A program made the position numbers and the translations under genes. Below are positions 29,774 through 59,821 of a DNA stretch of 62,934 bases, in pieces (position 1 is the first letter of the stretch; every line of letters begins with the position of its first letter). Location of the stretch: the IMG/VR virus record IMGVR_UViG_3300029309_000024, positions 1 to 62,934 of that record; one strand, given 5' to 3'. Source of the DNA: a virus. Taxonomy: Duplodnaviria; Caudoviricetes. The notes beneath the pieces were generated by a model. That model worked only from the letters and a program-made list of their open reading frames with translations, was not told where the DNA came from and did no database searches.

Positions 29774-32700
29774 ATGCCAGAAATAAAAAAGGTTTTCCTT
29801 CGTGGAAAGATGAACAAGGACCTCGATGAGAGACTAATCCCTGATGGCGAGTATAGAGACGCTTCTAATATTCAGATAGCCAGTACTGAAGGAGACGACG
29901 CGGGGACAGCTCAGAATATAGTTGGTAATAAAATAGTAGCTGATACTATTCAAGGAGGAGAATGTGTAGGTATTATTGAAAATACAGAAACTGATAAAAT
30001 ATATGTTTTTATAAAAGGTTCATCTGTGCATGGTATAATAGAATATGATCCCACAACTGAAACACACAAACCTTTAATATTAGATGAAAGAGGTTTAAAT
30101 GATAAAGTATTAAATTTTACAGATATTACTAAAATCACAGGAATAACTATATTAGATAATTTTTTAATATTTACAGATAACAAATCTGAACCTAAAATTA
30201 TTGATATATCACCTGATTCTTTACTTTTTAATTCTTTAAATAGCACAAGCTTATATAATTATACTAGTAAAATAAACGGCACTAATTTTACTGAAGAAGA
30301 TATTGTGCTAATAACTAAAAAACCTGATCAAGCTCCAGGTGTTAGAATACTAGTTAAATCTGGTAATAAAACAAATTCTCCAATATTTGAAGATAAATTT
30401 GTAAGATTTGCATATAGGTTTGTTTTTAAAAATGGTCAAAGATCTCCAATATCACCTTTTACACAGCCGGTATTTTTGCCTAGCGCTGTTAATTCATACG
30501 ATATAGACGAAGGGTTTAATAATCAAATGGAAAATAATATTGAAGAAGCACAGTTATTTGAGTTTGATACATCACACAATTCATTAGATAGCATTGAAAT
30601 TATTTATAAAGAATCAAATAATACTAATATATATCTTTATGATTCAATAGATAAAGCTACAGCAGAAGCAGCTAATACAGCTATAGGAAATAATCCAACA
30701 GATACTAACCGTTATCTTATAAACAAAACAGTTAAAAAAAGTGTTATACCTGAAGATCAATTATTAAGGGCGTATGATAATGTGCCTTTTAAAGCTAAAG
30801 CTGTAGATGTTGTTGGTAATAGAATAGTATTTGGTAATTACCAAGACGGTTTAAATATACAAAATTATAGCCCTACATTTTCAAATATTGAAACATTTCC
30901 AAGAAGTACTATAGACGATCTTGCTTCTCCAAGCGCAATAACTGTAAATGGTGAAACAAAATCTGGGGTTATAGGTGGAAGTGGTACTGGAATAAATGAT
31001 ACTAGAACAATAAAAACAGGTAGGGATTATGAAGTAGGAGTTGTTTTTGAGGATAAATATGGTAGACAAACACCTGTTATAACAGCAGATGGTGGTGCGG
31101 GTTCAGGTACATTAAAAGTTCCGTTTGATACAAGACCTAACAATGCTACAGGTACTAATTTAAAAATTATAATGGGTGGTAATTTTCCAAACGACCCAAG
31201 ATTAACAAAATTTAAATACTATATTAAACCTAGCTCTAATAATTTTAATAATTTAATAGTTGAAACTGTTAAAAATGACAAAGAAGATTCTGGCACATGC
31301 TGGTTAGTTGTTCCCTCTTATGAAATAAATAAAGTAAAAGATGAAACCGCTAAGTCTCAATATATGATGCTTAAAAAAGCATTAAACTCAAATACTAAAT
31401 TATCTTATGGTAATAATCCTGATGATTTTAAATTTAAAATATTAGATATATCAAATAATAAACCTGAAAATATAGATGCAGTAGAATCTTTTGACGGTAA
31501 GTTTTTTATTAAAATAAAAAAGACTACACAGATAATTGATAATCTTTTTACAAATCAAGGATTAGCGGGAGCAAACGGTGAAATATTAGAAATTGATTTT
31601 AAACAAGGTAATTCTTCTAGTATAAATAACGCTTTATTTTTAGGGCAGGTTACTGCACCTGATTCTCAAGATAGAATAGAAGTAACTAAGTTTTATTTTA
31701 AAAATGGTAACATATTTGAAGTTGTTTCAAGCGCACCTATAGGTAGTACCTTAACAGAGCATTTTCAATCAAGCGTTGTGGGTAGTTCAGCTGGAGGCGC
31801 ATATGCAGATTTAGCAGGACACGTTGTTGGTTATGACGATAGTTTACCTTTTGCTGATGGAGATAATTCTGTAACTAAGGTTGAAGTTAAATATAATAGT
31901 AGTAAATTTCCTACATCTTTTCAAATAACATATGCAAGTCAAAACTCAAATATTGATATTGCATCTGCAGGTAATTCACCAGCTGTATTTGAAACAATAC
32001 CAGAAGATGAAGTATTAGATATATATTACGAAACAAGTGAATGTTTTGGTAAAGATGAATGGGGACAACCTCAACATTTAGATTGGTTTAATGCTTATGT
32101 AATGGGTAATGGTGTTGAATCTAGTACTATTAACGATGATCTCTTTGTTGACACTATACTGCCGGGGGTTAAAGTTTCAACAACAATAGAGGGTGATTAT
32201 AAAGAGCGTAATAAAAAAAGTTCTTTAATATACTCAGGTATATATAATTCATTAGGTGGTATAAATAAATTGAATGAATTTAATACTGGTTTAAAAATAA
32301 CCAAAGAGTTAAATCCTGAATATGGTAGTATACAAAAACTACATACAAGAAATACAAATATATTAGCTTTTTGTGAAGATAAAGTATTAAAAGTTTTAGC
32401 TAATAAAGACGCTTTATTTAATGCTGATGGTAATGTTAATTTAACAGCAACTGAAAACGTATTGGGTCAAGCTGTAGCTTTTGCAGGAAATTATGGTATA
32501 TCAAAAAATCCTGAATCTTTTGCAGTTCATGGATATAGAATATATTTTACAGATAAAGCAAGAGGAGCAGTAATAAGAATAACAGGGGATGGAATTACAG
32601 TTATATCAGAAGCCGGTATGTCAAGCTATTTTAGAGATAATCTTTTAGCTGAAACAGGGCAAATTATAGGTAGTTATGATTTGCATTCTGATCAATATAT

Positions 32701-35700
32701 ATTAACTTTACCTATAACGAATACGTCTATTAGCTACAGCGAAGATACAAAAGGTTGGACTTCAAGATTAGATTTTATGCCAGAAGCAGGTGTATCTATT
32801 AATGGGAATTATTATACATGTTATTTAGGTAAATTATATTTACATCACGCAGATGGAGAAAACACAGGTGTGTTTTATGGTCAAAACTTTCCAGCGGGTA
32901 TTAAATTAATATTTAATCAAGAAGCATCTGCTATAAAAAACTTTAAAAATATATCTTATGAAGGAACAACAGGCTGGACAACTGTTGATGCCGGCATACA
33001 AACAGATCAGCAACAAGGTAAAATATTAGAATTTAAAGAAAAAGAGGGTAAATATTTTGGATTAATATCAGGTATAGATGATAAATTAGAAGATATTAAC
33101 GAAAACGAAAGAAATTCTAGATTAAAAGATTTTTCTATACAAGGGTTAGGTAATATAGTTAACGTACAGGGTTCTACGGAATTTACTTGTGCTACGGCTA
33201 ATTTTATAATTAACAATAGTAATACGACAGATGTAAATGGAAATGCTATAACTTCTATATCTAAAAGTTCAGCAACAGGAACAATAGTTTCAGTTACACC
33301 AAATACTATTCAATCTGGCTCGCAAACATATACAGCTGATATACAAGTTCCAAATGGATTTTCAAATTCTGGTGCAATTATATCTTGTACTGATACTGCT
33401 ACGGGAACAGTTATAAATCAAGTTTTTGATTGTAATACAGCTAATTTTCAAGTAGCAAATGGAACGGTAGGTAATATAGTAACCGGTACAGTTGATAATG
33501 GTACAATAGCTAGTATATCGCCGTCAACATATCAATCAGGGTCAACAGATTATATAGCAACAATAAATATACCAGGAAGTGGTTATACTAATTCTGGAAC
33601 AATACCTTGTACTGATACATTTACAGCATCAGGAGCTAGTTGTGCTTTTAGTTTAGCAGTAACTACTTACAATTCTTCTGCTGGCACCACTCAATTATCA
33701 GGTACTTTTACAGGTACTGATATTGGAACTAACCCAACTATAAATTTATCAGTAGCTTCAGGAACTATATCGCCTACATCCACAACCAAATCAGCATTAA
33801 CTGCATCAGGGGGTTTAGCTGTAACTGCATCAGAAGGTGTAGAAATAACCGCAACTATATCAAGTGGTTTATGTAATGGTGAAACTGCTAAAGTAAATAT
33901 GCCGCAAGCATCTACAGTAGTTATAACGGGTCTTGGTACAGCTATGGTTGGTGATAACGTTTTGCTATCAACTAATACTACTGGTGTAGTAACATCTTAT
34001 CAATGGCATAAAAGTAGTTCATCAGGATTTACACCAAGTAGTAGTACAGCTATTTCGGGAGCTAATTCATCATCGTTAACTGTTTCAGAAAGTTCAGCAG
34101 CAACACAATATTATAAAGTGGTAATAAGTGGCCCTGCAACATCACCTCAGCATGCTATTACATGGACAGCTTGGACTTCACACTCTAATTTAAAATATTT
34201 AAGTGGTACATCTGCTAATTTAGGTGCTTGTACATCTACAACTTTAAGAAATTTATTTGGTAATGGTACTTTTACAGGAGCAACACAATTTGCTGTAAAT
34301 AATCAAGGTAGCGTAAGTTATTTTCAACAAGGTACTTATTCTGATGGAACAAATTATAGATTTATAAATTCAGGAGGTGTTCCAAGTGCACATTCTCCTT
34401 GTACAGGAGGTAATCAAGGTATAAGAGCTACAAAATGTAGAGACGCTAGTAGTAGCAAAGATATTTTAGTTACAGTACCTACAGGTAGCAATGCGCTTGC
34501 GGTAGGGAATATAATAAGCTTTACCGAAACATATGATAATAATACGCATTGGGTGGTAACTGAAATTGGTTTAAACTTAAATACAAATCAATATGATGCT
34601 TTAAGAACTTTATCAGCAACACATACTAGCTGTTTAGCGGCAGATCCACCTACAGTAAGTTTATCAGCCCCTAGCGAGGTTTTTGTAGGAGAAACAATTT
34701 CACTAACTGCATCACCGTCTTTTACTCCACAAGGAGCAACATTTACTTATATATTTAGAAAAAGTACAGATGGTAGCACACCAACAGCAGTATTATCTGA
34801 AACAACTAATGCAACAGTTACAGATACTGCTCAAACAAGTATTTTAGGCTCAGCGGTTACAAATAAATATACAGTTGAAATAAAAAATACTAATCCGCTA
34901 ATAGAGTCTACTCCGGTAACAGAAGTTGATGTAAAAATATACAATACCGTATTTTTCGGAGCTATATTAAGTGGGACGAGCGCAAACGCATCAGCTTGTA
35001 CACAAAATCCAGGCAGCGAAACTAGATTTGCTAATACAACTACAACAACTTCTATAAGTAAATTATATAAAACATCACAAGGAGGAGCATTTAGTTTAAG
35101 TGAAAGGGGAACATATGCGAGGGACGGATTATATGCTTTTTTTGATGAAAATGGAAACAGAGTAGGAGCTTGGAATAATTGTCCTGCACCAAGCGAATCT
35201 GTAACAATATTTTTTGGTGGAAGTTCAACTAATAAATTAAATAGAAATCCATACGAGTCGTTAGGTCTAACAACTAACACAAGTAATTTTACAGCTGGTT
35301 CAACATTATCTTATGCTTGGACTCAAACTCAGGGACCAGGATCTGGAAGCACTGTGTTAACCACAGAAGATAATTTTACAGCTGAATTATCAATTGCAAC
35401 AGCAGATGCTTTAGCTTCAGGAAGCACTATATCTAAAACTTTTAGGTGTACTGTTACAGGAAGTATTGGGAGTGAAACTGCAAATGATGAAATTACAATT
35501 TCTTGGCAAGGAAAATCTCAACAATTAGAAATTTTTCATTGTACTAGTAATGATACTGAATATGTAAAAGTAATAAACAGTGATGGCTATAATAATAATG
35601 ATGTTATAAATATAGTAGACAGCACAGGTGCTATTACTAATGGTTGTTATAAAATCTTAACAGCTGGGCATACCTCTCATGCTGGGTATGATGACGTTAA

Positions 35701-36922
35701 AATTTTTAGCTTGAATCAAAGATACCCTTTTAATGCAACATCTACTTGTTGTGAGTGTTCTTCGTGTAGTGCTAGTATAACAACTAATTCAACTGGAACA
35801 GCAGGACAAGGCCAGCAGATGGCGGCTAGTAATAGTGGATTTACAGTAAATACTTCAGGTAATAAATATAATTGGTTTGTAACAACAGTAGAGGACGATA
35901 GATTAAATCCTAATGCTAATTCATGGGGAGAAATAACAAGTTTAGAAGATCAACAATCTTTTCTAATAAGTAATAGCCAAGCACAAACTTTATATTATAT
36001 GGTTAAGGTTCAAGGGTTCAATGCTACAACAACAGATGTAGTTGAGCATGGATTTGCAACTATAGAATGGGGACCAGCCTCTACAACACCTGTTGCTAGA
36101 AGTTATTTATTACAAACTTACGAAGAGTTTAATTGTCCAAACGTAGCTGATGTAAGTAATGTTTATGGTAATTATACTAGCCCGTCAGCTTTAGCTACAG
36201 GCACAACCGTTACTCTTAGTAATAATAGCTCAACATGTTATAGAGTTGTAGGATATTTATCAAGTGGTTATGTTTCAACATATCCTTCAATAGATAACGA
36301 TTATCCTGATGGATGTCAATCATGTTACAACGATATAAATCAAGATTGTAGTTTTCTTTTAACAGCTGGTACTACATATTTTAGTAATAACTCTGCTAAG
36401 TTTTTTGGTACATTTGGTAGCAGCGCTTCAAATACTGATACTGTTACATTATCCGTATCATCAGGAACAGTTTCAACATCATCAACATCGACTGTTACAA
36501 CAACTACTGTAGGAGCACTAAAAGCAAGCAACGGGTTAACTGTTTATTTAAATCAAGGAGTTACGTTAACAGCAACTATAAGCACTGGAACTTGTACTAA
36601 TACATCTGATTCTGTAACAGCACCTAGTTTACTTTGTTATCCTTTATTAGTTTATTATCATACTCAAAACCCGGCTAGTAATGCTTCTGCAAAAACAGCT
36701 TTATGTGGTAGCGGTAGTACAAGACAAATTAGGGCTAATGCTCCTACTTTAAATACAGCTACACAAATATACAGCGGTAATACTTGTGCAACTTTAGAAT
36801 CAGGAACTAAATATTATTCATCAGATAATATAAGCTATTTTATATGGAATGGAAGTTCCTTATCAAATGCAATACCTCTTAATTGTTCCGGCGGAGGCGG
36901 CGGAGGCGGCGATATACAGTAA
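29774..36922 (+). CDS. Tail stabilisation (nozzle) protein fused to a long Cys-containing beta-repeat extension
   Basis: N-terminal GKMNKDLDERLIPDGEYRDA and YGISKNPESFA; ~1250-aa S/T/G-rich repetitive C-terminal half. Confidence 0.75.
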   Translation: MPEIKKVFLRGKMNKDLDERLIPDGEYRDASNIQIASTEGDDAGTAQNIVGNKIVADTIQGGECVGIIENTETDKIYVFIKGSSVHGIIEYDPTTETHKPLILDERGLNDKVLNFTDITKITGITILDNFLIFTDNKSEPKIIDISPDSLLFNSLNSTSLYNYTSKINGTNFTEEDIVLITKKPDQAPGVRILVKSGNKTNSPIFEDKFVRFAYRFVFKNGQRSPISPFTQPVFLPSAVNSYDIDEGFNNQMENNIEEAQLFEFDTSHNSLDSIEIIYKESNNTNIYLYDSIDKATAEAANTAIGNNPTDTNRYLINKTVKKSVIPEDQLLRAYDNVPFKAKAVDVVGNRIVFGNYQDGLNIQNYSPTFSNIETFPRSTIDDLASPSAITVNGETKSGVIGGSGTGINDTRTIKTGRDYEVGVVFEDKYGRQTPVITADGGAGSGTLKVPFDTRPNNATGTNLKIIMGGNFPNDPRLTKFKYYIKPSSNNFNNLIVETVKNDKEDSGTCWLVVPSYEINKVKDETAKSQYMMLKKALNSNTKLSYGNNPDDFKFKILDISNNKPENIDAVESFDGKFFIKIKKTTQIIDNLFTNQGLAGANGEILEIDFKQGNSSSINNALFLGQVTAPDSQDRIEVTKFYFKNGNIFEVVSSAPIGSTLTEHFQSSVVGSSAGGAYADLAGHVVGYDDSLPFADGDNSVTKVEVKYNSSKFPTSFQITYASQNSNIDIASAGNSPAVFETIPEDEVLDIYYETSECFGKDEWGQPQHLDWFNAYVMGNGVESSTINDDLFVDTILPGVKVSTTIEGDYKERNKKSSLIYSGIYNSLGGINKLNEFNTGLKITKELNPEYGSIQKLHTRNTNILAFCEDKVLKVLANKDALFNADGNVNLTATENVLGQAVAFAGNYGISKNPESFAVHGYRIYFTDKARGAVIRITGDGITVISEAGMSSYFRDNLLAETGQIIGSYDLHSDQYILTLPITNTSISYSEDTKGWTSRLDFMPEAGVSINGNYYTCYLGKLYLHHADGENTGVFYGQNFPAGIKLIFNQEASAIKNFKNISYEGTTGWTTVDAGIQTDQQQGKILEFKEKEGKYFGLISGIDDKLEDINENERNSRLKDFSIQGLGNIVNVQGSTEFTCATANFIINNSNTTDVNGNAITSISKSSATGTIVSVTPNTIQSGSQTYTADIQVPNGFSNSGAIISCTDTATGTVINQVFDCNTANFQVANGTVGNIVTGTVDNGTIASISPSTYQSGSTDYIATINIPGSGYTNSGTIPCTDTFTASGASCAFSLAVTTYNSSAGTTQLSGTFTGTDIGTNPTINLSVASGTISPTSTTKSALTASGGLAVTASEGVEITATISSGLCNGETAKVNMPQASTVVITGLGTAMVGDNVLLSTNTTGVVTSYQWHKSSSSGFTPSSSTAISGANSSSLTVSESSAATQYYKVVISGPATSPQHAITWTAWTSHSNLKYLSGTSANLGACTSTTLRNLFGNGTFTGATQFAVNNQGSVSYFQQGTYSDGTNYRFINSGGVPSAHSPCTGGNQGIRATKCRDASSSKDILVTVPTGSNALAVGNIISFTETYDNNTHWVVTEIGLNLNTNQYDALRTLSATHTSCLAADPPTVSLSAPSEVFVGETISLTASPSFTPQGATFTYIFRKSTDGSTPTAVLSETTNATVTDTAQTSILGSAVTNKYTVEIKNTNPLIESTPVTEVDVKIYNTVFFGAILSGTSANASACTQNPGSETRFANTTTTTSISKLYKTSQGGAFSLSERGTYARDGLYAFFDENGNRVGAWNNCPAPSESVTIFFGGSSTNKLNRNPYESLGLTTNTSNFTAGSTLSYAWTQTQGPGSGSTVLTTEDNFTAELSIATADALASGSTISKTFRCTVTGSIGSETANDEITISWQGKSQQLEIFHCTSNDTEYVKVINSDGYNNNDVINIVDSTGAITNGCYKILTAGHTSHAGYDDVKIFSLNQRYPFNATSTCCECSSCSASITTNSTGTAGQGQQMAASNSGFTVNTSGNKYNWFVTTVEDDRLNPNANSWGEITSLEDQQSFLISNSQAQTLYYMVKVQGFNATTTDVVEHGFATIEWGPASTTPVARSYLLQTYEEFNCPNVADVSNVYGNYTSPSALATGTTVTLSNNSSTCYRVVGYLSSGYVSTYPSIDNDYPDGCQSCYNDINQDCSFLLTAGTTYFSNNSAKFFGTFGSSASNTDTVTLSVSSGTVSTSSTSTVTTTTVGALKASNGLTVYLNQGVTLTATISTGTCTNTSDSVTAPSLLCYPLLVYYHTQNPASNASAKTALCGSGSTRQIRANAPTLNTATQIYSGNTCATLESGTKYYSSDNISYFIWNGSSLSNAIPLNCSGGGGGGGDIQ

Positions 36923-39222: not shown

Positions 39223-42200
39223 ATGAGAGAATTAAATTTAGCTGTTGATTCTTTAGACCCTATAGAAGATTCGGAAGAAAATAAAAAAAGGCCTAAAGAT
39301 AATAAAACAGCATCTGAAATTACTTCTTCGGGACAATCATTATTTCACCCAGATATAGAATCAGCTACTGTGCCTCTTGATGAGGTTATAGTAAAAGAAA
39401 AGTTAACACCTTTTGCAAAAGAAAATATAGAATGGAATAATTTTTATAATACAGAAGAAAGAATAAATGATTTAATTCAACAAAATGGTGAAGGTTTTAT
39501 ACCTGAAGCTACACCTAGTTTTGTTAATATATCTATAAGAGATAAGATTTTAAAATATGAAGATGAAATAAAAAATGTTAATATTGATCAAGGAATCGGA
39601 ATTAGTGATGAAGCGTATCAAGATATTTTTAATTCTGTTTTAAATAATCATACTGCATTAAAAAAAGTTAGAGATGGTATATTAGGAACAGCTCAAAAAG
39701 ATTTTAACAATGCCGTTAATTTAAGATTTAATGAAGAAATAAAATCTTGGAATCAATCAGAGCAAGGGCAAAGATTAACTGATTTACAAAAAACATATGG
39801 TCCTGGTCTTGAAAATTTAACTAGGGGAGATGAAAATAGACAAGAAATTATAAATGAATATAATAGTTTGATTAAAGGGTTTAATGATACTATTGTGCCT
39901 AAGCATGAACAAATTCAAAAAGATGTTAATGAAGAAATGAATTTAGATAGCTATTATAATAATCATGTTGCTTTAAATAAAGAATTTGCTAACATTAAAA
40001 ATTTAATAGGGGAAGCTTTAACTGGGTACAATAGAAATCTTAACAGAGAAGCATTGGATATAGATGGAGGTTTAGGTGATTTTTTTGAAAAAGGTAAATT
40101 AACAATTAAATCGGGTAAAACTAAAAATGCTTTTATATTTGCTAATGAAGATTACAAAAAAGCTTTAAATGAATTACAAAATTTAGAAAATAAAGAAAAT
40201 AACGATTTAGTTGAAATAAATTCAATATCTAATGTGTCTTCAAATGATTTTAAATTTGAAACAATAACTGTGCCACAGGGCTCTCCTATAATAAAAGCTA
40301 CCGTGCCAGTAGAACAGGCAAGAAAATATTTTAATAAAGTTGCAAAAGAAAAACAAAAAGAATCATTATCTTTAGTTGCGGACGCAAGTGAGCTAGATAG
40401 AGTAATATCTTTTTATGATAAAGTTGAAATAAATAGTTTGCAAGATTTTTTTCAAAACTCATTAAAAGCTGGCGCAGAACAACTACCGCAAATGTGGTCT
40501 ATGGTAACCTCTTTGGGCACATCTGTATATTTACAAGAATCTGGTAATAATTATTATGAGCAACTTGAAGATTTTGTTGTAGAAAATGAAAAAGAAGTTT
40601 TACAACAATTAAGAGAAACTGGTAAACAAGATACAAAAAATAATAGATTATTAGCGGCATCTGAACTAGGAGCGGGTAATGCTGCACTTTCTCAAGCGGT
40701 TGGAATAGTTAATACAGGTGTTGAGGCTTTAGAATATGGGGCTTTAATTGCTGGTTTAGGTGGTAAATTTAGCGCAATGTTTCTTAAAGAGCTTTACGAA
40801 GGCTCTATGAAAAAATTAATTGATGCTGGGTTAACAATTTCAGCAACATCATTAGTTAGTGGTTCACAAGAAATTATTCAGTCAGGTGTTTCTACTAAAG
40901 CAAGACAAATAGCTTCAGATTCAAATAGATCGTTTTTTGAGTACACAAAGCCAAAAGAATTTAAACAAGAGTTTTTAATAGGTGCTTCGGCAATATTACC
41001 TATATCTATAGGAACTATATCCGTAAAAGAAGTATATAGCCAAATACAAAAAGAAATATCTAAAAAGCCTAACTTAAAAACCAGAGATTTTATTGTTAAT
41101 TTACAATCCAGTCTTGAACAAAGTTTCGCTAATCAAGAAATTACAGAAGAAGAATATTTAGATGGTAGAGAAAAAATTGCACAACTTCAAGAGTTAGATA
41201 GAAAAATTCCAAACACTATAAAAGGTGAGGATAAAATAAAAGCAGCAGAATTATTAAATGAAAAAAGTAAGCTTGTAAAAGAAAAAGAACAAATAGAGCA
41301 AGGATTAAGCCAAGAAATAGATTTGGAGTTACAAGACATTGATAACAAAATATCTGAAATAGGAGAAAAACAAGTTACAGATAAAAAAGCTATTAGTGAA
41401 AAAAATATTAAAATTGCTGAAACTAATAAAGAGTTAATGGCAATTATAAAAGATCCTAATTCTAGTGAAACTGCTATAAAAAAAGCTAAAAATGATATAG
41501 CTAAAAACAATGAAGGGTTAATTAATAATATAGTAAACAGAAAATTTGATCCTACTAAAGACACAGGATTAACAAGAGAAGATTTACTTTCAGGTGTTAA
41601 TGAAATATTTTCAGAAGCTGTAAAAACTTTTAATCCAGAAAAAGGAGAGTTTGGGGCATATGCGAATCAATTAATTAATTTAAGATTACCCCGTATATTT
41701 GATGAGTTTGTTGAAACTAAAGTAAATGAAAAAACAGGTAAAAAAGAAATTATTGGTAGAAAAGATATATCAGATATTCAAGTTGAAGGTGAAACAACTC
41801 AACCTTCCTTTGCTTTAAAACCAGAAACAAAAACAAGTTTAAAAAATAAATTATTTACAGCAAAATTAGGTTTTGATAAAAAGCTTATACCGGGTAATAC
41901 AAATAAAACTTTTGCAGATCTTTTTATTGATGCGGTTGGTAAAACATTACAAACTAAATTACCAGATATAACAAATGAAAAACAATTTAAAAAAGATTTT
42001 ACAAAAAAGAATCAAGCTGAAGTAATTCCTATTTTACAGGAATTAACTAAAAAAGATAAAGATACAGGGGTTGATAATTTTAAAATATTTCTTGATCAAA
42101 ATTTTGATGCTATAATAAAACAATTACCTCAGAGTGTTATAAATAAAAAATATCCTATGTTAAGAGAAGCCGTTCTTGACGAAGATGGTAGGCAAAAAAG

Positions 42201-45200
42201 AGAAGGAACAAAAGAAGGTAAAGGTATTTTCAAAAGAGTTGAGCAAGAAAAATCTGATTTTATAGATTACTTTACAGCAGCCGAAGACAAGGTAACGGGT
42301 AAAAAAATTGGCTCAAGCACAAGAAGTGATAGAAAACAATCATTATTAAGAACAATAGCCGATGAACTTTCAGCGGATGCTGCATTAGATGTTATAAAGG
42401 ATAAAAACATTACAGATAAATTTAAAGAAATACAAGAGTTACAAGGCGCAAAAGTACCAGAAGATTTTTTAGATAGGCTTGTTAATTTAATTGATAGAGG
42501 AATAGACTATCTTGATAGAATGCAAAATAACAGTTCTTTAAGAGTAGGTTTTGTTTTACCTGAATTAGCAATGGCTTTTCTTAAAAATGTTTTAAAGTTT
42601 TTAAAAGTAGGTATAAAAGCTGGGCAAGAGTTTGCTAGTTCTTTAGATTCAGCTGTTGAAGAAGCTGCAAAAGAACCAGATTCTCAATTAAGAAATAATG
42701 AAGAAATTGACGCAGTTAAAAAAGTTGCTGCTAAAAATTTTAAAAGCGAAAAAGATTTAACTGACGCTAAAATAAATAAAACTACTAAAGAAGTAGGTGG
42801 TGCAATTTTTCAAGACAGATTAATACGTGGCTTAGAAAATACTATTTTTCCATATATAGGTGCTAAGCTAAGTGGTATTAAAAATCCAGAACTAAGAAGA
42901 ATTAAAGCTACTAATTTACTTAGTAATTTAACAAGAGGTATTTCTTGGTCAGCTGATTATCTTAAAAAGAGTAAAACTCCTAAAGGTAAAAAATTAACTA
43001 AATTAGCTTTTAATAAAAACATTTTAACTGAATTAAAAAAAGTGTTGCCTAAAGACTATTTTGGAAAAGATGCAATAAATATTAAGGGTAATAAATTTTA
43101 TTATGGTTCTGAAAAAATTCAAAATATTCAATTCACAGAAGCAGGTAATATTATAAGAAGAGGTAAAAAAGCTTTTGATGATGCTGTTGAAAGAAGTTAT
43201 CAAGCTAAACAACAAGGATTAGAATTTTTAATTAATTTAAGGGCAGATGTTGAAGCTGGTATTATTGACGAAAACACAGCTGAAGATTTAATAGATATTG
43301 CTAAAAATAATCAAAAGGGTATTATTAGAAGAATGGCTTTACCTAATATATTATTTGATTATAAAGAAGGAACTAAATATATAGCGGAACATGATTCTCC
43401 TATGAATGATTTAATTGAAAATTTCATAAAACCTTATATTAAAGGAAAAGTTAATTTAGATAAATTAAAAAATGAAATTGATAATCAAAGAGTAAACTAT
43501 GTTTCTGTAGCATTTAATGATGCAATTCCTACTGAGTTTAAAGATAAAAAATCAGATAAAAGATATAATAACCCTTTAAGAGAGTTTAAAGGACAATATA
43601 CTGAATTTAATCCAATTAATTTAAAAGAAAAAGAATTAAGAGAAAGAATAACTATTTTAACTGAAAATTTAATAAAAGGTGATTTAAAAAATCTTACAGA
43701 GGGCCAGGCTATATCATTAGGCAAGAAAGCTAATAGATTTAAAATTATTTTACCTTATGGCGCTGAAGATTTATTGGGTCTCATTTATCCTTTATTAAGA
43801 AAAGGAAAATTAGGCGATGAAGATTTAAAGTTTTTTAAAGAAAATTTATTTGATCCTTTAAAAGATGCTTTTAATAGATATGATTCAGCTAAATTAGATG
43901 GAATGGTTCAATTAAGAGCTATTAAAGAAGAATTAAAAGAAATAGGGTTAAATTTGCAAGAAGTTGCTTTTGATAATATTTCACAAGATAACGCAATTAG
44001 AATTCATTTATGGTCAACAAGAGGGTATAAAATACCAGATGGCCCTAATGATGTTTTATCAGAATCGCAAATAGAAAAAGCAAATCAATGGGTTAGGCAA
44101 AATTTAGAAGCATTAAATATAAAAGAAATAATTGAGGGCGCTTATGAGGGGCGTATGTATCCTGAACCGGGAAATAATTGGAGAGGAGAAACATTAACAA
44201 CAGATTTACTTAAAAGTTATAATGTTACAATTAGAAGAGAATATTTTGCAGACTTTTTTAAAATAGTTGAAGCAATGTTTGGTGAAAGAAAAAATAATCA
44301 AATAACAGGTGAGATTGCTAATAATTTAACAGCTAAATTAGGGACAAACTGGGCGGACGCATTTAATAACATGTTAACTAGGATAGAAACAGGTAGACAT
44401 AGAAATATGCCCACGGATAAATATTCTAATGCTTTTACTAATTGGATTAACTCTGCTGTTTCTACTATTATGTTTGTGAATACTAGATCTGTATTATTAC
44501 AAACAATATCTAATTTAAATTTTATAAACGGAACTGATAACAATGTTTTTTCTGTTGCTGCTGCTTATGGTAATGTAAAACAATTTGTAGCTGATTTCCA
44601 TAAAATATTTTATTCAGACTTTTTAAAATCAAGAAGATCTGGTTTAAAAATTGATGTTAATTTAGATGAATTAAGTCAAGCGGCTGAAGGTAATAATGCT
44701 AATAGAGCAGAAGCTATGTTAGCAGCTTTACTTAAAAAAGGTTTTTATCCTACTCAAATGGCAGATAGTTTTGCTATTGCTTTTGGAGGAGCGCCGTTTT
44801 TAAGGAACAGAACAAAAACTTATCAAAAAGAAGGTTTTAGTTTAGAAGAAGCAGAACAAAAAGCTTTTGGTGATATGAGAGAATTAGCTGAAGAATCTCA
44901 ACAATCCTCAAGACAAGACAAAATTTCTATGCAGCAAGCTAGCGGTATAGGTAAACTTATATTAGCTTTTCAAAATTACCCTATGCAAGCAACAAGAATA
45001 CAAAAAAGAGCTGTTCAAGATTTATTAGCTAATAGAGGTAATCCTGTAAAAAACGTAAGAAGAATATTATATTACGGAGCTTTACAAAATGTTTTATTCC
45101 ACTTTTTACAATCTGCAGCATTTTATGTATTTATAAATAAAGACGAATTAAAAGACGAAGAAGAAGAAAAAAGATTATATGGAATATTAAACAGAATGGC

Positions 45201-45699
45201 TGACACTATATTAGCGGGAAGTGGATTTAATGGTGTTATTGCCGCTTCTATAAAAAATGTAGTATTAGAATTAGCAGATGAATTTTCTGAAGATGGTCAA
45301 AAAAATACTAGAGAAGCTTTAATAAGATCAACAGCATTTTCTCCACCTATAAATAGTAAATTAAGAAAAGTTAATTCCGCATTTCAAAGATTTGAAAGAA
45401 AACAAGAAAGAGAAAAAATGGGTGATTTAAGTTTTGAAAATCCTTTTCTTAAATCATCAACGGAACTTATAGAAGCTGCTACTAATTTACCAGCTAATAG
45501 GGTGTTAAGAAAAGTTGAAAATGTTAAGTTAGCTTTAGACAAAGAAACTGATTTTTGGAGATCATTATTTTTAACAATGGGATATAATAAATATGATCTA
45601 TTTATGTATGATTTTCAAAAAGATGGAGAAGACACAACATTTAGAAAAAGAAAACCATTAAAAGAAAGAAAAGAAAGAAAACCATTAAAAACAAATTAA
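39223..45699 (+). CDS. Large internal virion (ejection-like) protein with embedded sigma70 region-2-like segment
   Basis: 2158 aa at the end of the tail module; residues ~750-830 read NNEGLINNIVNRKF...LTREDLLSGVNEIFSEAVKTFNPEKGEFGAYANQLINLRL. Confidence 0.75.
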   Translation: MRELNLAVDSLDPIEDSEENKKRPKDNKTASEITSSGQSLFHPDIESATVPLDEVIVKEKLTPFAKENIEWNNFYNTEERINDLIQQNGEGFIPEATPSFVNISIRDKILKYEDEIKNVNIDQGIGISDEAYQDIFNSVLNNHTALKKVRDGILGTAQKDFNNAVNLRFNEEIKSWNQSEQGQRLTDLQKTYGPGLENLTRGDENRQEIINEYNSLIKGFNDTIVPKHEQIQKDVNEEMNLDSYYNNHVALNKEFANIKNLIGEALTGYNRNLNREALDIDGGLGDFFEKGKLTIKSGKTKNAFIFANEDYKKALNELQNLENKENNDLVEINSISNVSSNDFKFETITVPQGSPIIKATVPVEQARKYFNKVAKEKQKESLSLVADASELDRVISFYDKVEINSLQDFFQNSLKAGAEQLPQMWSMVTSLGTSVYLQESGNNYYEQLEDFVVENEKEVLQQLRETGKQDTKNNRLLAASELGAGNAALSQAVGIVNTGVEALEYGALIAGLGGKFSAMFLKELYEGSMKKLIDAGLTISATSLVSGSQEIIQSGVSTKARQIASDSNRSFFEYTKPKEFKQEFLIGASAILPISIGTISVKEVYSQIQKEISKKPNLKTRDFIVNLQSSLEQSFANQEITEEEYLDGREKIAQLQELDRKIPNTIKGEDKIKAAELLNEKSKLVKEKEQIEQGLSQEIDLELQDIDNKISEIGEKQVTDKKAISEKNIKIAETNKELMAIIKDPNSSETAIKKAKNDIAKNNEGLINNIVNRKFDPTKDTGLTREDLLSGVNEIFSEAVKTFNPEKGEFGAYANQLINLRLPRIFDEFVETKVNEKTGKKEIIGRKDISDIQVEGETTQPSFALKPETKTSLKNKLFTAKLGFDKKLIPGNTNKTFADLFIDAVGKTLQTKLPDITNEKQFKKDFTKKNQAEVIPILQELTKKDKDTGVDNFKIFLDQNFDAIIKQLPQSVINKKYPMLREAVLDEDGRQKREGTKEGKGIFKRVEQEKSDFIDYFTAAEDKVTGKKIGSSTRSDRKQSLLRTIADELSADAALDVIKDKNITDKFKEIQELQGAKVPEDFLDRLVNLIDRGIDYLDRMQNNSSLRVGFVLPELAMAFLKNVLKFLKVGIKAGQEFASSLDSAVEEAAKEPDSQLRNNEEIDAVKKVAAKNFKSEKDLTDAKINKTTKEVGGAIFQDRLIRGLENTIFPYIGAKLSGIKNPELRRIKATNLLSNLTRGISWSADYLKKSKTPKGKKLTKLAFNKNILTELKKVLPKDYFGKDAINIKGNKFYYGSEKIQNIQFTEAGNIIRRGKKAFDDAVERSYQAKQQGLEFLINLRADVEAGIIDENTAEDLIDIAKNNQKGIIRRMALPNILFDYKEGTKYIAEHDSPMNDLIENFIKPYIKGKVNLDKLKNEIDNQRVNYVSVAFNDAIPTEFKDKKSDKRYNNPLREFKGQYTEFNPINLKEKELRERITILTENLIKGDLKNLTEGQAISLGKKANRFKIILPYGAEDLLGLIYPLLRKGKLGDEDLKFFKENLFDPLKDAFNRYDSAKLDGMVQLRAIKEELKEIGLNLQEVAFDNISQDNAIRIHLWSTRGYKIPDGPNDVLSESQIEKANQWVRQNLEALNIKEIIEGAYEGRMYPEPGNNWRGETLTTDLLKSYNVTIRREYFADFFKIVEAMFGERKNNQITGEIANNLTAKLGTNWADAFNNMLTRIETGRHRNMPTDKYSNAFTNWINSAVSTIMFVNTRSVLLQTISNLNFINGTDNNVFSVAAAYGNVKQFVADFHKIFYSDFLKSRRSGLKIDVNLDELSQAAEGNNANRAEAMLAALLKKGFYPTQMADSFAIAFGGAPFLRNRTKTYQKEGFSLEEAEQKAFGDMRELAEESQQSSRQDKISMQQASGIGKLILAFQNYPMQATRIQKRAVQDLLANRGNPVKNVRRILYYGALQNVLFHFLQSAAFYVFINKDELKDEEEEKRLYGILNRMADTILAGSGFNGVIAASIKNVVLELADEFSEDGQKNTREALIRSTAFSPPINSKLRKVNSAFQRFERKQEREKMGDLSFENPFLKSSTELIEAATNLPANRVLRKVENVKLALDKETDFWRSLFLTMGYNKYDLFMYDFQKDGEDTTFRKRKPLKERKERKPLKTN

Positions 45700-56349: not shown

Positions 56350-56673
56350 TTAATTACCAAGTCTATAGAATAACCAAACTTGTTGTGATCTTGGTTTTGT
56401 TATTACTAAAGTGGTATTCCCGATGTAGAATAAAAGATTATACTCATCTTCTACATCATCTCTAATTACTCTTAGCTCCCCGTCAACTAATTCTAGTTTG
56501 CCAGACGCTAATATGCCTTTTGTATTTCTCCTAGTGAATGTTTCGTTAGGTTGAATTATTAAAAGTTCTTGATCTAAGTTATACCAATTGCCGTATAATT
56601 CTTGCGGTATTGGTTCAGACTTTTGCGTATAGCAAAAGCTTGTCATTAATAAAAATAAAATTAATATTCTCAT
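56350..56673 (-). CDS. Secreted lipocalin-like beta protein
   Basis: Signal peptide, LYGNW motif. Confidence 0.6.
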   Translation of the reverse strand: MRILILFLLMTSFCYTQKSEPIPQELYGNWYNLDQELLIIQPNETFTRRNTKGILASGKLELVDGELRVIRDDVEDEYNLLFYIGNTTLVITKPRSQQVWLFYRLGN

Positions 56674-57425
56674 AAAAAATCTAATACTTGTGATTTATCT
56701 ACTGTTTGTATTAAAGTATCAATTGCGTCTCTTTTAATTTGCGAAACGCGAACGTAGTTGGCAGTGCCTTCTATGTTAAGTTTCTGTGCAATTTCTTTTG
56801 CACTCATTTTATCACAGTCAAGTCCGTAGCTCATACGTAGTACATCATATTCTCTATCTGATAGATTTGTTTTCATAAGCCCTAATAGATACGCGTTTAT
56901 TATATCTATATTATACTTTTCCGATTTATCTGGAATTTGCATAAGAGCATTGTCCTCTTCATTTTCATACTCAACATCTATACTAGAAAATATACTGTTA
57001 AAAAACATTTGTACTATCTTCTTGTCGCCACCATCTGATTTTCTAATTTCATTAAGCTTGTATTCAGGTATTCTCATATTACCTCGATTAATATCAATCT
57101 CTCTTCTTATTGCACCTCGAATACGTTTCGACAAAAATGATTTAAGTGTTTTTTCTGGGTGCTCAGATTCGTTTATAACATTCCAATCAATACGATCGAC
57201 TGCTAAGATTAAACCTTCCGCGCCAGACTGTAATAAATCATTAATACTTAGAACGCCGGAAGCTTGGTCTGAAGTAGAAAAAGAACGTGCTACGGACTCA
57301 ACTAGTGGTAAATTTTCAATTATTATTGTATCTCTCTCTGAGTATTTACCCTCAGAGGCTAAATTTAAACTGTCTTCTAAATCAAGTTTATACCTGATAT
57401 AGTTTTGGACGTTATATCTTTTCAT
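56670..57425 (-). CDS. Phage sigma70-family RNA polymerase sigma factor
   Basis: Region 2 (NLPLVESVAR...DLLQSGAEGLILAVD...RIRGAI) and region 4 (LSDREYDVLRMSYGL...SAKEIA...RVSQIK). Confidence 0.9.
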   Translation of the reverse strand: MKRYNVQNYIRYKLDLEDSLNLASEGKYSERDTIIIENLPLVESVARSFSTSDQASGVLSINDLLQSGAEGLILAVDRIDWNVINESEHPEKTLKSFLSKRIRGAIRREIDINRGNMRIPEYKLNEIRKSDGGDKKIVQMFFNSIFSSIDVEYENEEDNALMQIPDKSEKYNIDIINAYLLGLMKTNLSDREYDVLRMSYGLDCDKMSAKEIAQKLNIEGTANYVRVSQIKRDAIDTLIQTVDKSQVLDFL

Positions 57426-59080: not shown

Positions 59081-59110
59081 AATTATCTATATTAATTCGT
59101 GTTTGCTACG
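59081..59110 (-). promoter_or_regulatory. Early promoter-like motif copy 8 (two deviations)
   Basis: AATTATC-N9-TCGTG-N6-ACG. Confidence 0.65.
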
Positions 59111-59207
59111 TGTTATTCAAAAAATATTTTAATATATAATAAAATAAGTGTTATTAACATAGCGTAAGCAAAATAATCCATAAATTCCCAATCTTCAAAC
59201 ATAATAA

Positions 59208-59438
59208 TTAATCTGCTACTGTTAATCTACAATCACATTCATTCATTTGAGAATATAGTGCATTGCATTCATCTTCAAGCATTTGGATATGTTCCTCCAT
59301 TGCTTTGATTCTTTCTTGTTGAAATGTTACGAGTGATTCCATACTGTAATTATTAGTGCTATTAGTATTATCATCATAATTATATGTATTAATAATAAGA
59401 TCGCCATTAGTTGTAATTTTAAATTTCGGGGTAATCAA
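59208..59438 (-). CDS. Early hypothetical coiled-coil protein
   Basis: ORF track; start uncertain. Confidence 0.55.
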   Translation of the reverse strand: MITPKFKITTNGDLIINTYNYDDNTNSTNNYSMESLVTFQQERIKAMEEHIQMLEDECNALYSQMNECDCRLTVAD

Positions 59439-59604
59439 TTGTTTGTATTTTTAGTTTACCTTTATTATTCTTTTCGCTATAGTATATAGCTGTAATAAGA
59501 TTTCCATACTGTTTAAGTAATTCAATCTGTTTATCTGTAAAGTCAAAGTCAACATTAAAGTTGCCAGTACCTTCTCTTCCGTTTGTATTTAAAAACATCA
59601 TCAT
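59419..59604 (-). CDS. Early hypothetical protein
   Basis: Likely start at MMMFLNT. Confidence 0.55.
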   Translation of the reverse strand: MMMFLNTNGREGTGNFNVDFDFTDKQIELLKQYGNLITAIYYSEKNNKGKLKIQTIDYPEI

Positions 59605-59605
59605 A

Positions 59606-59731
59606 TTATTCTGGTTTAAAGTATTTATGCCATTTATCAATTATAGGCTCATCAGTACTATAATCAATATAAAAAATGTAATCGTCTATTTCAACGTACA
59701 TTACATGTTCACATTTAACATCTATTTTCAT
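59606..59731 (-). CDS. Small early hypothetical protein (41 aa)
   Basis: MKIDVKCEHVMYVEIDDYIFYIDYSTDEPII... Confidence 0.55.
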   Translation of the reverse strand: MKIDVKCEHVMYVEIDDYIFYIDYSTDEPIIDKWHKYFKPE

Positions 59732-59745
59732 AATTTATAATTTAG

Positions 59746-59819: not shown

Positions 59820-59821
59820 AT

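What the first reader, a model, noticed from the sequence alone, without database searches (positions are those of the whole stretch)
41470..41715. Sigma70 region-2-like domain inside the giant ejection-like virion protein: possible virion-delivered sigma factor
Seen: residues ~750-830 of the 2158-aa ORF read KAKNDIAKNNEGLINNIVNRKF..TGLTREDLLSGVNEIFSEAVKTFNPEKGEFGAYANQLINLRL. This follows the sigma70 region 2 pattern (N.gLV..ia.ry...l..eDLiq.g..gL..Av..FDp.kg.F.tYA...I), which covers the core-binding and -10 melting elements. Established: the last large genes of podovirus tail modules are typically ejected into the cell with the DNA, and N4 and crAss-like phages inject whole RNA polymerases. 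Inference: this phage may instead inject a sigma domain that redirects host core RNAP to its own early promoters before any phage gene is expressed. That would explain why 11 early promoter-like motifs do not match the Bacteroidota host consensus even though the stand-alone phage sigma gene sits at the downstream end of the early arm. No region 4 was recognised nearby.
Basis: partly seen in the sequence, partly recalled or inferred. Interest (0 to 1): 0.9.

Follow-up and report, generated by a model that had tools for sequence, protein, structure and literature searches.

The report
Sigma-factor domain inside giant phage protein
A 2,158-residue protein encoded among the particle genes of an uncultured marine flavobacterial phage really does contain a copy of the sigma-factor domain that grips RNA polymerase, so the phage may bring a transcription-hijacking module in with its DNA, but packaging, binding and activity are all untested.

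Summary
Observation confirmed. Residues 727-831 of the 2158-aa ORF (window 41401-41715) are a true sigma-70-family domain 2 (regions 1.2-2.4). An AlphaFold model superposes on E. coli sigma70 at Z 12.7, rmsd 2.0 A over 97 residues. In an unbiased fold search the top 31 rows are all sigma proteins; the best other fold scores Z 6.3. A 55-member family profile hits sigma factors in 46 of 49 PDB matches (best E 0.0016). Pfam Sigma70_r2 stays below its cut-off (12-18 bits against 24).

No sigma3 or sigma4 follows. The conserved 225-residue module after the domain folds confidently but matches no known fold.

The domain marks a large, uncultured family of giant phage proteins (507 representative clusters). 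Their gene sits in a fixed place after the muzzle-like tail gene, where crassviruses encode packaged cargo.

A well conserved stand-alone sigma occurs in 11 of 11, so co-occurrence cannot show which one reads the motif. The embedded domain diverges far faster than that sigma.

My reading is an ejected module that docks on RNA polymerase. A true injected sigma remains possible, at about 20%. This scan has noted the same kind of domain before on other phage DNA.

The parts
39223..45699 (+). Giant ORF of 2158 aa (P0002), last large gene of the late/structural module. Probably a packaged cargo or ejection protein.
   Evidence: ORF listing and translation. Gene order TerL-portal-MCP-like-adaptor-muzzle-small ORFs-giant-lysin is kept in three near-complete relatives. 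No Pfam domain reaches its cut-off and there is no PHROG hit.
41401..41715 (+). Sigma-70-family domain 2 (regions 1.2, 2.1-2.4), aa 727-831.
   Evidence: VIA Z 12.7, rmsd 2.0 A, 97 aligned to E. coli sigma70. Wide search: ranks 1-31 are sigma-family chains. Family profile against PDB: 46 of 49 hits are sigma factors, best E 0.0016. Pfam Sigma70_r2 is sub-threshold.
41854..42528 (+). Conserved module downstream of the sigma2-like domain (aa 878-1102), joined to it by a low-confidence linker. Fold is unassigned.
   Evidence: 53-sequence alignment A4. AF2 pLDDT 86, pTM 0.81. No PDB fold match: Foldseek best E 0.37 and VIA wide best Z 4.7, with 0 of 48,161 chains at Z>=5. Profile against PDB finds nothing. 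This module is present in all 62 related viral loci.
43660..45696 (+). C-terminal domain (aa 1480-2158), the best conserved part of the giant protein.
   Evidence: Most invariant columns of the 28-sequence alignment A1 lie here. It is 39-40% identical in G004-G006 by tblastn, while the N-terminal and middle parts are not detected. The Atlas gives viral hypothetical clusters at 0.98; the nearest named clusters carry LPD39 (28% of members) and LPD38 (63%), which is a lead only.
40969..41031 (+). The only markedly hydrophobic segment of the giant protein (aa ~583-603).
   Evidence: Kyte-Doolittle 19-residue window above 1.4.
29774..36922 (+). 2382-aa muzzle-like tail protein upstream of the giant gene.
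   Evidence: Pfam crAss_MUZ_C, 32.4 bits against a cut-off of 27. PHROG 14478 virion structural protein, E 2.9e-120.
56670..57425 (-). Stand-alone phage sigma factor (251 aa, regions 2 and 4). It is the rival candidate reader of the motif.
   Evidence: Pfam Sigma70_r4 24.7 bits (cut-off 24.1) and Sigma70_r2 20.7 bits. 55-86% identical in relatives and present in 11 of 11 near-complete records.
377..2980 (-). Seven copies of the promoter-like motif ACGT-N6-TACGA-N9-GATAATA (first part of the early arm).
   Evidence: Pattern search with shuffled controls. Position relative to start codons.
59081..62641 (-). Four more motif copies upstream of the HTH and sigma genes. A twelfth copy with one mismatch lies at 55379-55409, inside the PDDEXK-like gene.

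Best explanation
The giant protein carries a genuine sigma-70-family domain 2 without sigma3 or sigma4. It is fused to a conserved module of unknown fold and to a conserved C-terminal domain.

I read the protein as a cargo or ejection protein that leaves the capsid with the DNA. I read the sigma2 domain as an RNA-polymerase docking module: like every sigma2, it would seat on the clamp helices of the host beta' subunit, so host core polymerase is captured at the entering genome at time zero.

Shown: the fold and its homology, the size of the family, the conserved gene position, and the lineage-wide early motif.
Inferred: packaging, binding to polymerase, and what happens after binding.

Within this reading I put about 40% on true initiation at the ACGA-N9-GATAAT promoters, in the manner of the sigma2-only factor gp55 of T4. 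I put about 60% on docking without promoter choice of its own, for example competition with host sigma or tethering of polymerase to the incoming DNA.
For: Fold and homology:
- Z 12.7, rmsd 2.0 A, 97 aligned, 22% identity to E. coli sigma70; all 50 rows shown are sigma factors.
- In the unbiased search, ranks 1-31 are sigma-family chains and the best unrelated row has Z 6.3 over 42 residues.
- The profile score against solved sigma factors rose from 12-13 bits with 14 close homologues (5 of 7 hits sigma) to 21.6 bits, E 0.0016, with 55 diverse members (46 of 49 hits sigma).
- Residues that match sigma70 in the printed alignment include the equivalents of N383, D403, L404, N409, A415, V416, F419, G424, F427 and Y430 (E. 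coli numbering is worked out by me).
- Internal control: the neighbouring helical module, folded at higher confidence, finds nothing above Z 4.7.

Family: 507 representative proteins at E<=0.001 and 310 at E<=1e-10. Of the 150 listed, most are 2000-3366 aa.

Position:
- The gene lies after a muzzle-like gene, and the order is kept in G004-G006.
- In PhicrAss001 the genes after the muzzle encode cargo proteins and RNA-polymerase-associated proteins found in virions by mass spectrometry (PMC10172136, passages).
- The syntenic giant gene of Flavobacterium phage elemoF is annotated as a structural protein.

Need for a time-zero factor:
- The window has 12 motif copies on one strand that do not resemble the flavobacterial sigmaA box.
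- The stand-alone sigma gene lies downstream of the motif array here and in the relatives listed.

Precedent: a chain of the T4 gp45-dependent activation complex, which I recall to be gp55, matches at Z 10.2, rmsd 2.6 A, 95 aligned.
Against: - No direct evidence of packaging. The protein has no PHROG or Pfam virion family. It has no detectable similarity to the syntenic giant proteins of cultured relatives. No cultured phage in the collection carries the module.
- Pfam Sigma70_r2 is below its gathering score. Only 6 of 14 close members and 5 of 55 diverse members reach E<=1 individually.
- A whole-protein profile ranks SigK only fifth of 7 hits, at E 0.62.
- hhalign against the phage's own sigma gives 5.7% probability over 19 columns.
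- The domain evolves fast. It is 13-20% identical to the window in most relatives, and 15% in G003, whose stand-alone sigma is 86% identical.
- The tryptophan pair of region 2.3 and the region 2.4 positions Q437 and T440 are not kept (alignment; roles recalled).
- A domain buried in a 245-kDa chain may not be free to bind polymerase unless the chain is flexible or is cut.
Confidence: 0.45

Rival explanations
1. The embedded sigma2 is a virion-delivered initiation factor. It makes host core polymerase start at the ACGT-N6-TACGA-N9-GATAATA early promoters before any phage gene is expressed; the stand-alone sigma then takes over. This is a special case of the best explanation.
For: - The motif is real, strand-specific and placed 20-30 nt upstream of early start codons.
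- GATAAT keeps A at -11 and T at -7, the bases that sigma2 domains flip out (recalled knowledge).
- The core motif occurs in 10 of 11 near-complete genomes that carry the giant protein. It is absent or at chance level in three relatives without it: 0, 1 and 0 copies.
- The stand-alone sigma gene always lies 2-5 kb downstream of the motif array on the same strand, which creates a bootstrap problem.
- T4 gp55 shows that a sigma2-only factor can read a -10-type promoter (fold match; its biology is recalled).
- The equivalents of Y430, F419 and F427 are kept.
Against: - Co-occurrence is confounded. The stand-alone sigma is present in 11 of 11 of the same genomes and absent from the same three outgroups.
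- An invariant motif fits a conserved reader. The stand-alone sigma is 55-86% identical, while the embedded domain is 13-20% identical and is barely alignable by tblastn in G004 and G006.
- G003 has the identical motif but a 15%-identical embedded domain.
- G005 has the domain but no motif.
- No element is identified that could read the two upstream boxes.
- The tryptophan pair is missing.
Confidence: 0.2
2. The sigma2 fold is kept but has been put to another use and does not touch RNA polymerase. It could be a helical spacer of the ejection apparatus, or a binder of single-stranded or end DNA of the incoming genome.
For: - Very fast sequence divergence within a lineage whose other core genes are 57-76% identical.
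- Individual members rarely reach even E<=1 against Sigma70_r2 (5 of 55).
- Many determinants of -10 recognition are lost.
- The flanking parts are coiled-coil-like and of unknown fold.
Against: - The domain has been retained across 507 representative clusters.
- The sigma-typical region 2.2 pattern (acidic residue, then G-x-x-G) and the Y/F-x-P-x-x-G ... Y pattern persist in the family consensus.
- No other function is known for isolated sigma2 domains (recalled).
Confidence: 0.25
3. The protein is not packaged. It is made late and acts inside the infected cell, for instance by sequestering or redirecting RNA polymerase late in infection.
For: Packaging rests on gene position only. There is no virion family hit, and only one modest hydrophobic segment, so there is little sign of a membrane-channel role.
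Against: - Fixed position between the muzzle-like gene and the lysin gene in four genomes.
- Giant genes in this position are annotated as structural in cultured relatives.
- In crassviruses such genes encode packaged cargo.
- Proteins of more than 2000 residues in podovirus late modules are typically internal virion proteins (recalled).
Confidence: 0.15
4. The resemblance is a chance helical look-alike, or an AlphaFold bias toward a well-known fold.
For: All sequence scores are weak: Pfam is below its cut-off and the best PDB E-value is 0.0016. Helical bundles can reach Z of about 13 by chance, according to the tool's own note. hhalign against the phage's own sigma fails.
Against: - Four kinds of search point to the same family in the same register.
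- The score rises when family diversity is added.
- There is a clear gap to unrelated folds: Z 11.8 over 90 or more residues, against Z 6.3 over 42 residues.
- Identity to sigma factors is 20-24%.
- The neighbouring helical module gives no such match.
Confidence: 0.07

Closest known systems
Sigma-70 family domain sigma2 (Pfam PF04542; for example E. coli sigma70 6ca0_F, S. aureus SigB 8x6g_H, M. tuberculosis SigA domain 2 4x8k_A)
   Same: Same fold over the whole domain: Z 11.3-12.7, rmsd 1.9-2.0 A, 90-97 residues, 14-24% identity. Same sequence register, including the N of region 2.1, the D-L...N of region 2.2 and the F...G.F..Y of region 2.3.
   Different: It is embedded in the middle of a 2158-aa protein. 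No sigma3 or sigma4 is recognisable. It scores below the Pfam gathering cut-off. The tryptophan pair of region 2.3 is absent.
T4 gp55, the sigma2-only late sigma factor (7d7d chain F; chain identity recalled, not given by the tool)
   Same: A sigma2 domain with no region 4. The fold match is Z 10.2, rmsd 2.6 A, 95 aligned. It would read a -10-type element only, and the phage motif ends in GATAATA.
   Different: gp55 is a small free protein, made after infection, for late genes, and it needs gp33 and the sliding clamp (recalled). Here the domain is part of a giant, probably packaged, protein. Identity is 10%.
Virion-packaged RNA polymerases: crassvirus cargo gp47, gp49 and gp50, and N4 gp50
   Same: [quoted passage not shown] In PhicrAss001 such proteins are cargo in virions by mass spectrometry (PMC10172136, passages). 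Arrays of a repeated early promoter motif occur at the genome end.
   Different: There is no polymerase signature: no D-x-D-x-D motif, no Pfam hit, and no tblastn match to any phage record. The phage would bring the specificity or docking part and borrow the host enzyme.
Polyvalent proteins of phages and conjugative elements (Iyer et al. 2017, PMC5512222)
   Same: Very large multidomain proteins thought to enter the host with the DNA. The Atlas neighbours of the C-terminal domain include clusters that carry LPD38 and LPD39 (lead only).
   Different: No LPD or other polyvalent domain is detected by Pfam. The word sigma occurs 0 times in the main text of that paper; its supplementary domain lists were not seen.
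Mycobacteriophage D29 gp53, a sigma-displacing mimic (bioRxiv 10.64898/2026.10.05.756390; abstract seen)
   Same: [quoted passage not shown] This is a model for docking without promoter reading.
   Different: gp53 is a small protein expressed after infection and is not reported as a virion component. No similarity to it was tested here.
Free-standing phage sigma factors (this phage's own 251-aa sigma; phiEco32 gp36 and SU10 gp32)
   Same: Phage-encoded sigma-70 family members that redirect host core polymerase.
   Different: They are complete, with regions 2 and 4, small and separately encoded. SU10 gp32 was seen as a single peptide alongside non-structural proteins in a phage preparation (PMC4281155, passages). 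The embedded domain is not a recent copy of this phage's own sigma.

Membership tests
Sigma-70 family, domain sigma2 (Pfam PF04542 Sigma70_r2) | HMM score at or above the Pfam gathering cut-off (24 bits) | tested here: not met
   12.1 bits for the whole protein, 15.5-18.4 bits for fragments, 17.5 bits in the six-frame scan. For comparison, the phage's undoubted sigma also reaches only 20.3-20.7 bits.
Sigma-70 family, domain sigma2 (Pfam PF04542 Sigma70_r2) | Sigma2 helical fold covering regions 1.2-2.4 | tested here: met
   Z 12.7, rmsd 2.0 A, 97 aligned. Ranks 1-31 of 48,161 chains are sigma-family. This rests on a predicted model with pLDDT 66-87 over the domain.
Sigma-70 family, domain sigma2 (Pfam PF04542 Sigma70_r2) | Profile-level sequence similarity to bona fide sigma factors | tested here: met
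   The 55-member profile gives 46 of 49 PDB hits as sigma factors, with best E-values of 0.0016, 0.0032 and 0.012. These are weak in absolute terms. hhalign against the phage's own sigma gives only 5.7%.
Sigma-70 family, domain sigma2 (Pfam PF04542 Sigma70_r2) | Region 2.2 residues that bind the beta' clamp helices | tested here: inconclusive
   The equivalents of D403, L404 and N409 are kept in the window. Q406, E407 and M413 are S, G and S here, but E407 is kept in many relatives. The roles of these residues are recalled.
Sigma-70 family, domain sigma2 (Pfam PF04542 Sigma70_r2) | Region 2.3/2.4 residues for -10 melting and recognition (Y430, W433, W434, Q437, T440) | tested here: inconclusive
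   The equivalents of Y430, F419 and F427 are kept. W433, W434, Q437 and T440 are Q, L, L and P. ECF sigma factors and gp55 also lack the tryptophan pair (recalled).
Sigma-70 family, domain sigma2 (Pfam PF04542 Sigma70_r2) | Physical binding to core RNA polymerase | not testable with these tools
   This needs biochemistry.
Complete sigma factor (sigma2 plus sigma4) | A region 4 helix-turn-helix that binds the beta flap and the -35 box | tested here: inconclusive
   The 246 residues after the domain fold confidently (pLDDT 86) but give no match to sigma3, sigma4 or any fold. There is no Sigma70_r4 hit in the whole protein. The rest of the protein was not folded.
Crassvirus-type or N4-type virion RNA polymerase / packaged cargo | Gene position after the muzzle or tail genes | tested here: met
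Crassvirus-type or N4-type virion RNA polymerase / packaged cargo | Polymerase catalytic signature | tested here: not met
   No D-x-D-x-D or [DN]-x-D-[GA]-D motif anywhere in the protein. No Pfam, PDB-sequence or phage-record match.
Crassvirus-type or N4-type virion RNA polymerase / packaged cargo | Presence in purified virions | not testable with these tools
   No cultured member was found.
Polyvalent proteins (Iyer et al. 2017) | Recognised polyvalent domains (LPD1-40, MuF, peptidase and others) in the same chain | tested here: inconclusive
   None by Pfam in P0002 or in three of the longest relatives. There are only Atlas neighbours with LPD39 (28% of members) and LPD38 (63%).

The most novel reading that the evidence does not exclude
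A whole lineage of marine flavobacterial podoviruses packages a minimal, gp55-like sigma (sigma2 only) inside a giant cargo protein. On entry it turns host core RNA polymerase onto the lineage-wide ACGA-N9-GATAAT early promoters, before any phage protein is made. This would be a third solution to the time-zero transcription problem, beside host-holoenzyme promoters and injected whole polymerases.
Probability: 0.2. Interest if true: 0.9.

Novelty: new variant of a known kind. Interest (0 to 1): 0.7.

Why it matters
Phages are known to start transcription in two ways. They either use promoters that the host holoenzyme reads, or they inject a whole RNA polymerase, as N4, crassviruses and phiKZ-like phages do. 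A packaged sigma-type module that borrows the host core enzyme would be an intermediate strategy. I found no description of one (searches; 0 mentions of sigma in the main text of the polyvalent-protein survey).

The family is large, with 507 representative clusters, and it belongs to abundant marine phages of Flavobacteriia. It comes with a sharply defined, lineage-wide promoter motif and a second, free sigma. The question is therefore directly testable with three purified components and one template.

Even the modest reading, a docking or sigma-competing domain in an ejected protein, would add a new kind of host-takeover cargo.

Tried and rejected
Co-folding. The sigma2-like domain (alignment A3) was co-folded with residues 150-400 of Flavobacterium johnsoniae beta' (Swiss-Prot RPOC_FLAJ1). 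The tool's verdict was 'no answer': median score 0.31 against a mark of 0.32, with controls at 0.00-0.01. I do not use this for or against binding.

Whole-protein searches that gave nothing useful:
- PHROGs.
- NCBIfam on the whole chain.
- Profile of 28 full-length homologues against PDB sequences: coiled-coil noise on top, SigK fifth at E 0.62.
- tblastn against 50,697 phage records: no match. The same held for a distant family member.

Is it a copy of the phage's own sigma? BLASTP found nothing. hhalign gave 5.7% probability over 19 columns. Rejected as a recent duplication.

Sigma3 or sigma4 after the domain:
- The separately folded module matched nothing in PDB.
- In BFVD it matched only one uncharacterised protein of an uncultured virus (E 0.0094).
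- No listed sigma3 or sigma4 match is not proof of absence.

Syntenic giant proteins of cultured or named relatives (MW202828.1, Maribacter phage Panino, Flavobacterium phage elemoF):
- No sigma2-like or downstream module.
- No BLASTP similarity to elemoF gp18.
- They therefore cannot lend proteomic support.

Host from prophages: a scan of genome contigs with A4 gave one 2-kb MAG contig only.

Other domains in three of the longest family members: none by Pfam.

It does not discriminate, because the motif, the giant protein and the free sigma travel together.
- Left out: L019, L022, L037, L039, L043, L044, L046, L049, L054, L060, L061 and L062, mostly duplicates of listed sequences or short records.

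De novo motif search in G005 upstream of its sigma gene: nothing was repeated 4 or more times.

The domain tables of Iyer et al. 2017 and the proteomics tables of the crassvirus and SU10 papers were not seen and may bear on the novelty claim.


Full report
WHAT IS THERE

The window is a 62,934-base IMG/VR virus record, estimated 98% complete. It is a podovirus-type phage.

- On the plus strand it encodes GroEL, tail fibres, large terminase, portal, capsid-like and adaptor-like proteins, a 2382-aa protein with a crassvirus muzzle C-terminal domain, three small or medium ORFs, the 2158-aa ORF 39223-45699, and an M15 lysin.
- On the minus strand it encodes ribonucleotide reductase, thymidylate synthase, primase-helicase, ERF, a 251-aa sigma factor and an HTH protein.
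- Portal relatives are all phages of Flavobacteriaceae: Flavobacterium 68, Cellulophaga 15, Tenacibaculum 2 and Maribacter 1 of 87 records, plus one uncultured record.

THE OBSERVATION

Independent sequence libraries put the same family on top, in the same register, but always weakly:
- Pfam Sigma70_r2: 12.1 bits for the whole protein and 18.4 bits for the 82-aa piece, against a cut-off of 24.
- NCBIfam: SigI, sigma70-ECF and SigE.
- PDB sequences: a SigE N-terminal domain at E 0.1.
- A six-frame scan of the whole genome with Sigma70_r2 rings only twice, at the free sigma gene (20.3 bits) and here (17.5 bits). So the embedded stretch scores nearly as well as the phage's undoubted sigma.

Thirty homologues, all unnamed metagenomic proteins of 1564-2642 aa, conserve the stretch. 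Of 14 close segments, 6 hit Sigma70_r2 at E<=1, and no other family is hit by more than one.

The structure settles the question.
- An AF2 model of aa 722-1100 (14 sequences, pLDDT 71) gives sigma factors in nearly all top Foldseek rows, with weak E-values.
- In the VIA second look, all 50 rows shown are sigma factors. The best is E. coli sigma70 at Z 12.7, rmsd 2.0 A, 97 aligned, 22% identity. Of 977 chains, 173 reach Z>=8. The aligned span is model residues 6-110, which is aa 727-831.
- The search that does not depend on Foldseek, over 48,161 representative chains, puts sigma-family chains at ranks 1-31 (Z 11.8 to 6.3). The first unrelated row has Z 6.3 over 42 residues.
- A family profile of 55 diverse members raised the score against solved sigma factors from 12-13 bits to 21.6 bits, E 0.0016, with 46 of 49 hits being sigma factors. 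A true relationship should behave this way.

Results against:
- Only 5 of those 55 members individually reach E<=1 against Sigma70_r2.
- The whole-protein profile is dominated by coiled-coil noise.
- hhalign against the phage's own sigma gives 5.7%.

I conclude that aa 727-831 are a diverged but genuine sigma2 domain, including a region-1.2-like helix.

WHAT SURROUNDS IT

The next 246 residues are more conserved than the sigma2 part. They fold at pLDDT 86 and pTM 0.81. They match nothing: the profile against PDB is empty, Foldseek's best is E 0.37, and VIA wide's best is Z 4.7, with 0 of 48,161 chains at Z>=5. In BFVD there is only one uncharacterised protein of an uncultured virus.

This also serves as a control: a helical model does not automatically find sigma factors.

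The C-terminal 680 residues are the best conserved part of the protein. Their Atlas neighbours are viral hypothetical proteins, and the nearest named clusters carry LPD39 and LPD38 of polyvalent proteins, which is a lead only. There is no polymerase-type acidic motif and only one hydrophobic segment.

THE FAMILY

- A scan of IMG/VR found 62 loci, all in giant ORFs.
- The exhaustive profile search found 507 representative proteins at E<=0.001 and 310 at E<=1e-10. Of the 150 listed, most are 2000-3366 aa or contig-cut fragments.
- No cultured phage carries the module. Bacterial genomes gave only one 2-kb MAG contig.
- In three near-complete relatives the gene order is kept: terminase, portal, capsid-like, adaptor, muzzle-like, small ORFs, giant protein. 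Identities are 74-76% for terminase, 58-65% for portal, 39-40% for the giant C-terminus and 28-35% for the sigma2-plus-downstream region.
- The sigma2 part itself is only 13-20% identical to the window in most of the 54 other members.
- Cultured relatives have unrelated giant proteins in the same slot. In elemoF that gene is annotated as a structural protein.
- In PhicrAss001 the genes after the muzzle gene encode cargo and polymerase-associated proteins that were found in virions by mass spectrometry (PMC10172136, passages read).

Packaging of this protein is therefore an inference from position.

THE PROMOTER ARGUMENT

The motif is real.
- It has 12 matches at up to 3 mismatches, against 0.67 expected, all on the minus strand. 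Eleven are in the early arm that runs across the record ends, and one is at 55379.
- Each lies 20-30 nt upstream of an AATAACT-ATG start.
- It does not resemble the flavobacterial sigmaA -7 box TAnnTTTG (PMC9723704, passages).

Its core, ACGA-N9-GATAAT, is lineage-wide.
- It occurs in 23 of the 50 family records searched, and in 10 of the 11 that are at least 90% complete. There are 4-10 copies, always on one strand, against 0-1 for the reversed control.
- The upstream box varies: ACGT here, ACAA in G006 and G007, TACA in G004.
- The three outgroup phages without the module have 0, 1 and 0 copies.

The free sigma travels with it. It is in 11 of the 11 near-complete records, with very high scores, and in none of the three outgroups. 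Presence and absence therefore cannot tell which sigma element reads the motif.

Two facts pull in opposite directions. The free sigma gene always lies downstream of the motif array on the same strand, so it cannot easily start its own expression, which favours a factor present at time zero. On the other hand, a nearly invariant motif is better matched by the well conserved free sigma (55-86% identical) than by the fast-diverging embedded domain. G003 shows this sharply: the same motif, a free sigma 86% identical, and an embedded domain 15% identical. G005 has both sigma elements and no motif that I could find.

MECHANISM

The best supported statement is that a genuine sigma2 domain has been built into a giant late-module protein and kept across a large phage lineage. 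The only known activity of sigma2 domains is to seat on the beta' clamp helices and, in many cases, to bind the unwound -10 element.

I therefore read it as a docking module for host RNA polymerase, delivered with the DNA. Confidence is 0.45 for the whole chain of inference, about 0.9 for the domain itself, about 0.65 for packaging, and about 0.55 for polymerase binding.

- T4 gp55, which matches at Z 10.2 (chain identity recalled), shows that a sigma2-only factor can direct initiation.
- D29 gp53 (abstract read) shows that a phage protein can simply displace sigma.

COMPARISON AND NOVELTY

The domain meets the fold and profile criteria of the sigma2 family but not Pfam's score cut-off. It is not a complete sigma factor, not a polymerase, and not a demonstrable member of the described polyvalent-protein domains.

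I found no paper that describes a sigma domain inside a virion or cargo protein (searches; the polyvalent-protein survey has no mention of sigma in its main text; supplements not seen). The nearest hint in print is a single peptide of the free ECF sigma of phage SU10, seen in a preparation that also held DNA polymerase and other non-structural proteins (PMC4281155, passages).

This scan has flagged the same kind of domain in giant proteins of other uncultured marine phages. Those notes agree with what I found but are not independent evidence. A later check of one related note priced the bold reading at 10 in 100.

I class the finding as a new variant of a known kind and score interest at 0.7.

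Noticed in passing
window 41854-42528 (+): The module after the sigma2-like domain is more conserved than the domain itself. It folds at pLDDT 86 and pTM 0.81 and has no match among 48,161 PDB representatives (best Z 4.7). It is a candidate new fold that always accompanies the sigma2 domain.
   Followed up: partly
L005 (record G003), locus 2569-2922: A close relative has a free sigma 86% identical, a downstream module 55% identical and identical motif copies, yet its sigma2-like domain is only 15% identical to the window's. The domain seems to be swapped or to evolve very fast within the lineage.
   Followed up: partly
record G005 (loci L070-L073): A 99%-complete relative with both the giant protein and the free sigma (62% identical) has no ACGA-N9-GATAAT copy. 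No other repeated gapped motif was found upstream of its sigma gene.
   Followed up: partly
window 55379-55409 (-): A twelfth motif copy with one mismatch lies inside the PDDEXK-like gene (55037-55780), downstream of the sigma gene. The same sequence context recurs in G002 and G003. It could be an internal promoter for the replication genes.
   Followed up: no
G004 13994-17133 (+); G006 43298-55220 (+): The upstream box of the tripartite motif differs between sublineages: ACGT here, ACAA in G006 and G007, TACA in G004. The ACGA and GGATAAT boxes are constant. The start of the free sigma's region 4.2 recognition helix also varies (TAN, TAS, DSS), with too few cases to test co-variation.
   Followed up: partly
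L001 36941-42418; L064 35462-40951; L065 34297-42394: Cultured or named relatives have giant genes of 1829 to about 3860 aa in the same slot that share no detectable similarity with this one. They carry odd automatic names such as 'reticulocyte binding/rhoptry protein' and 'tRNA methyltransferase'. The slot is a mosaic hot spot.
   Followed up: partly
window 3882-5444 (+): A phage-encoded GroEL-type chaperonin (Cpn60_TCP1, E 3.6e-55), shared with the Flavobacterium, Maribacter and uncultured relatives.
   Followed up: no
window 41187-41564 (-): A 125-aa GTG-started antisense ORF overlaps the sigma2-like region. It lies wholly inside the conserved giant ORF and is probably not a gene.
   Followed up: no
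window 12402-18462 (+): Two adjacent large fibre or spike proteins share DUF7483 plus Ig-like domains. The second also has a laminin-G/sialidase-like lectin domain.
   Followed up: no
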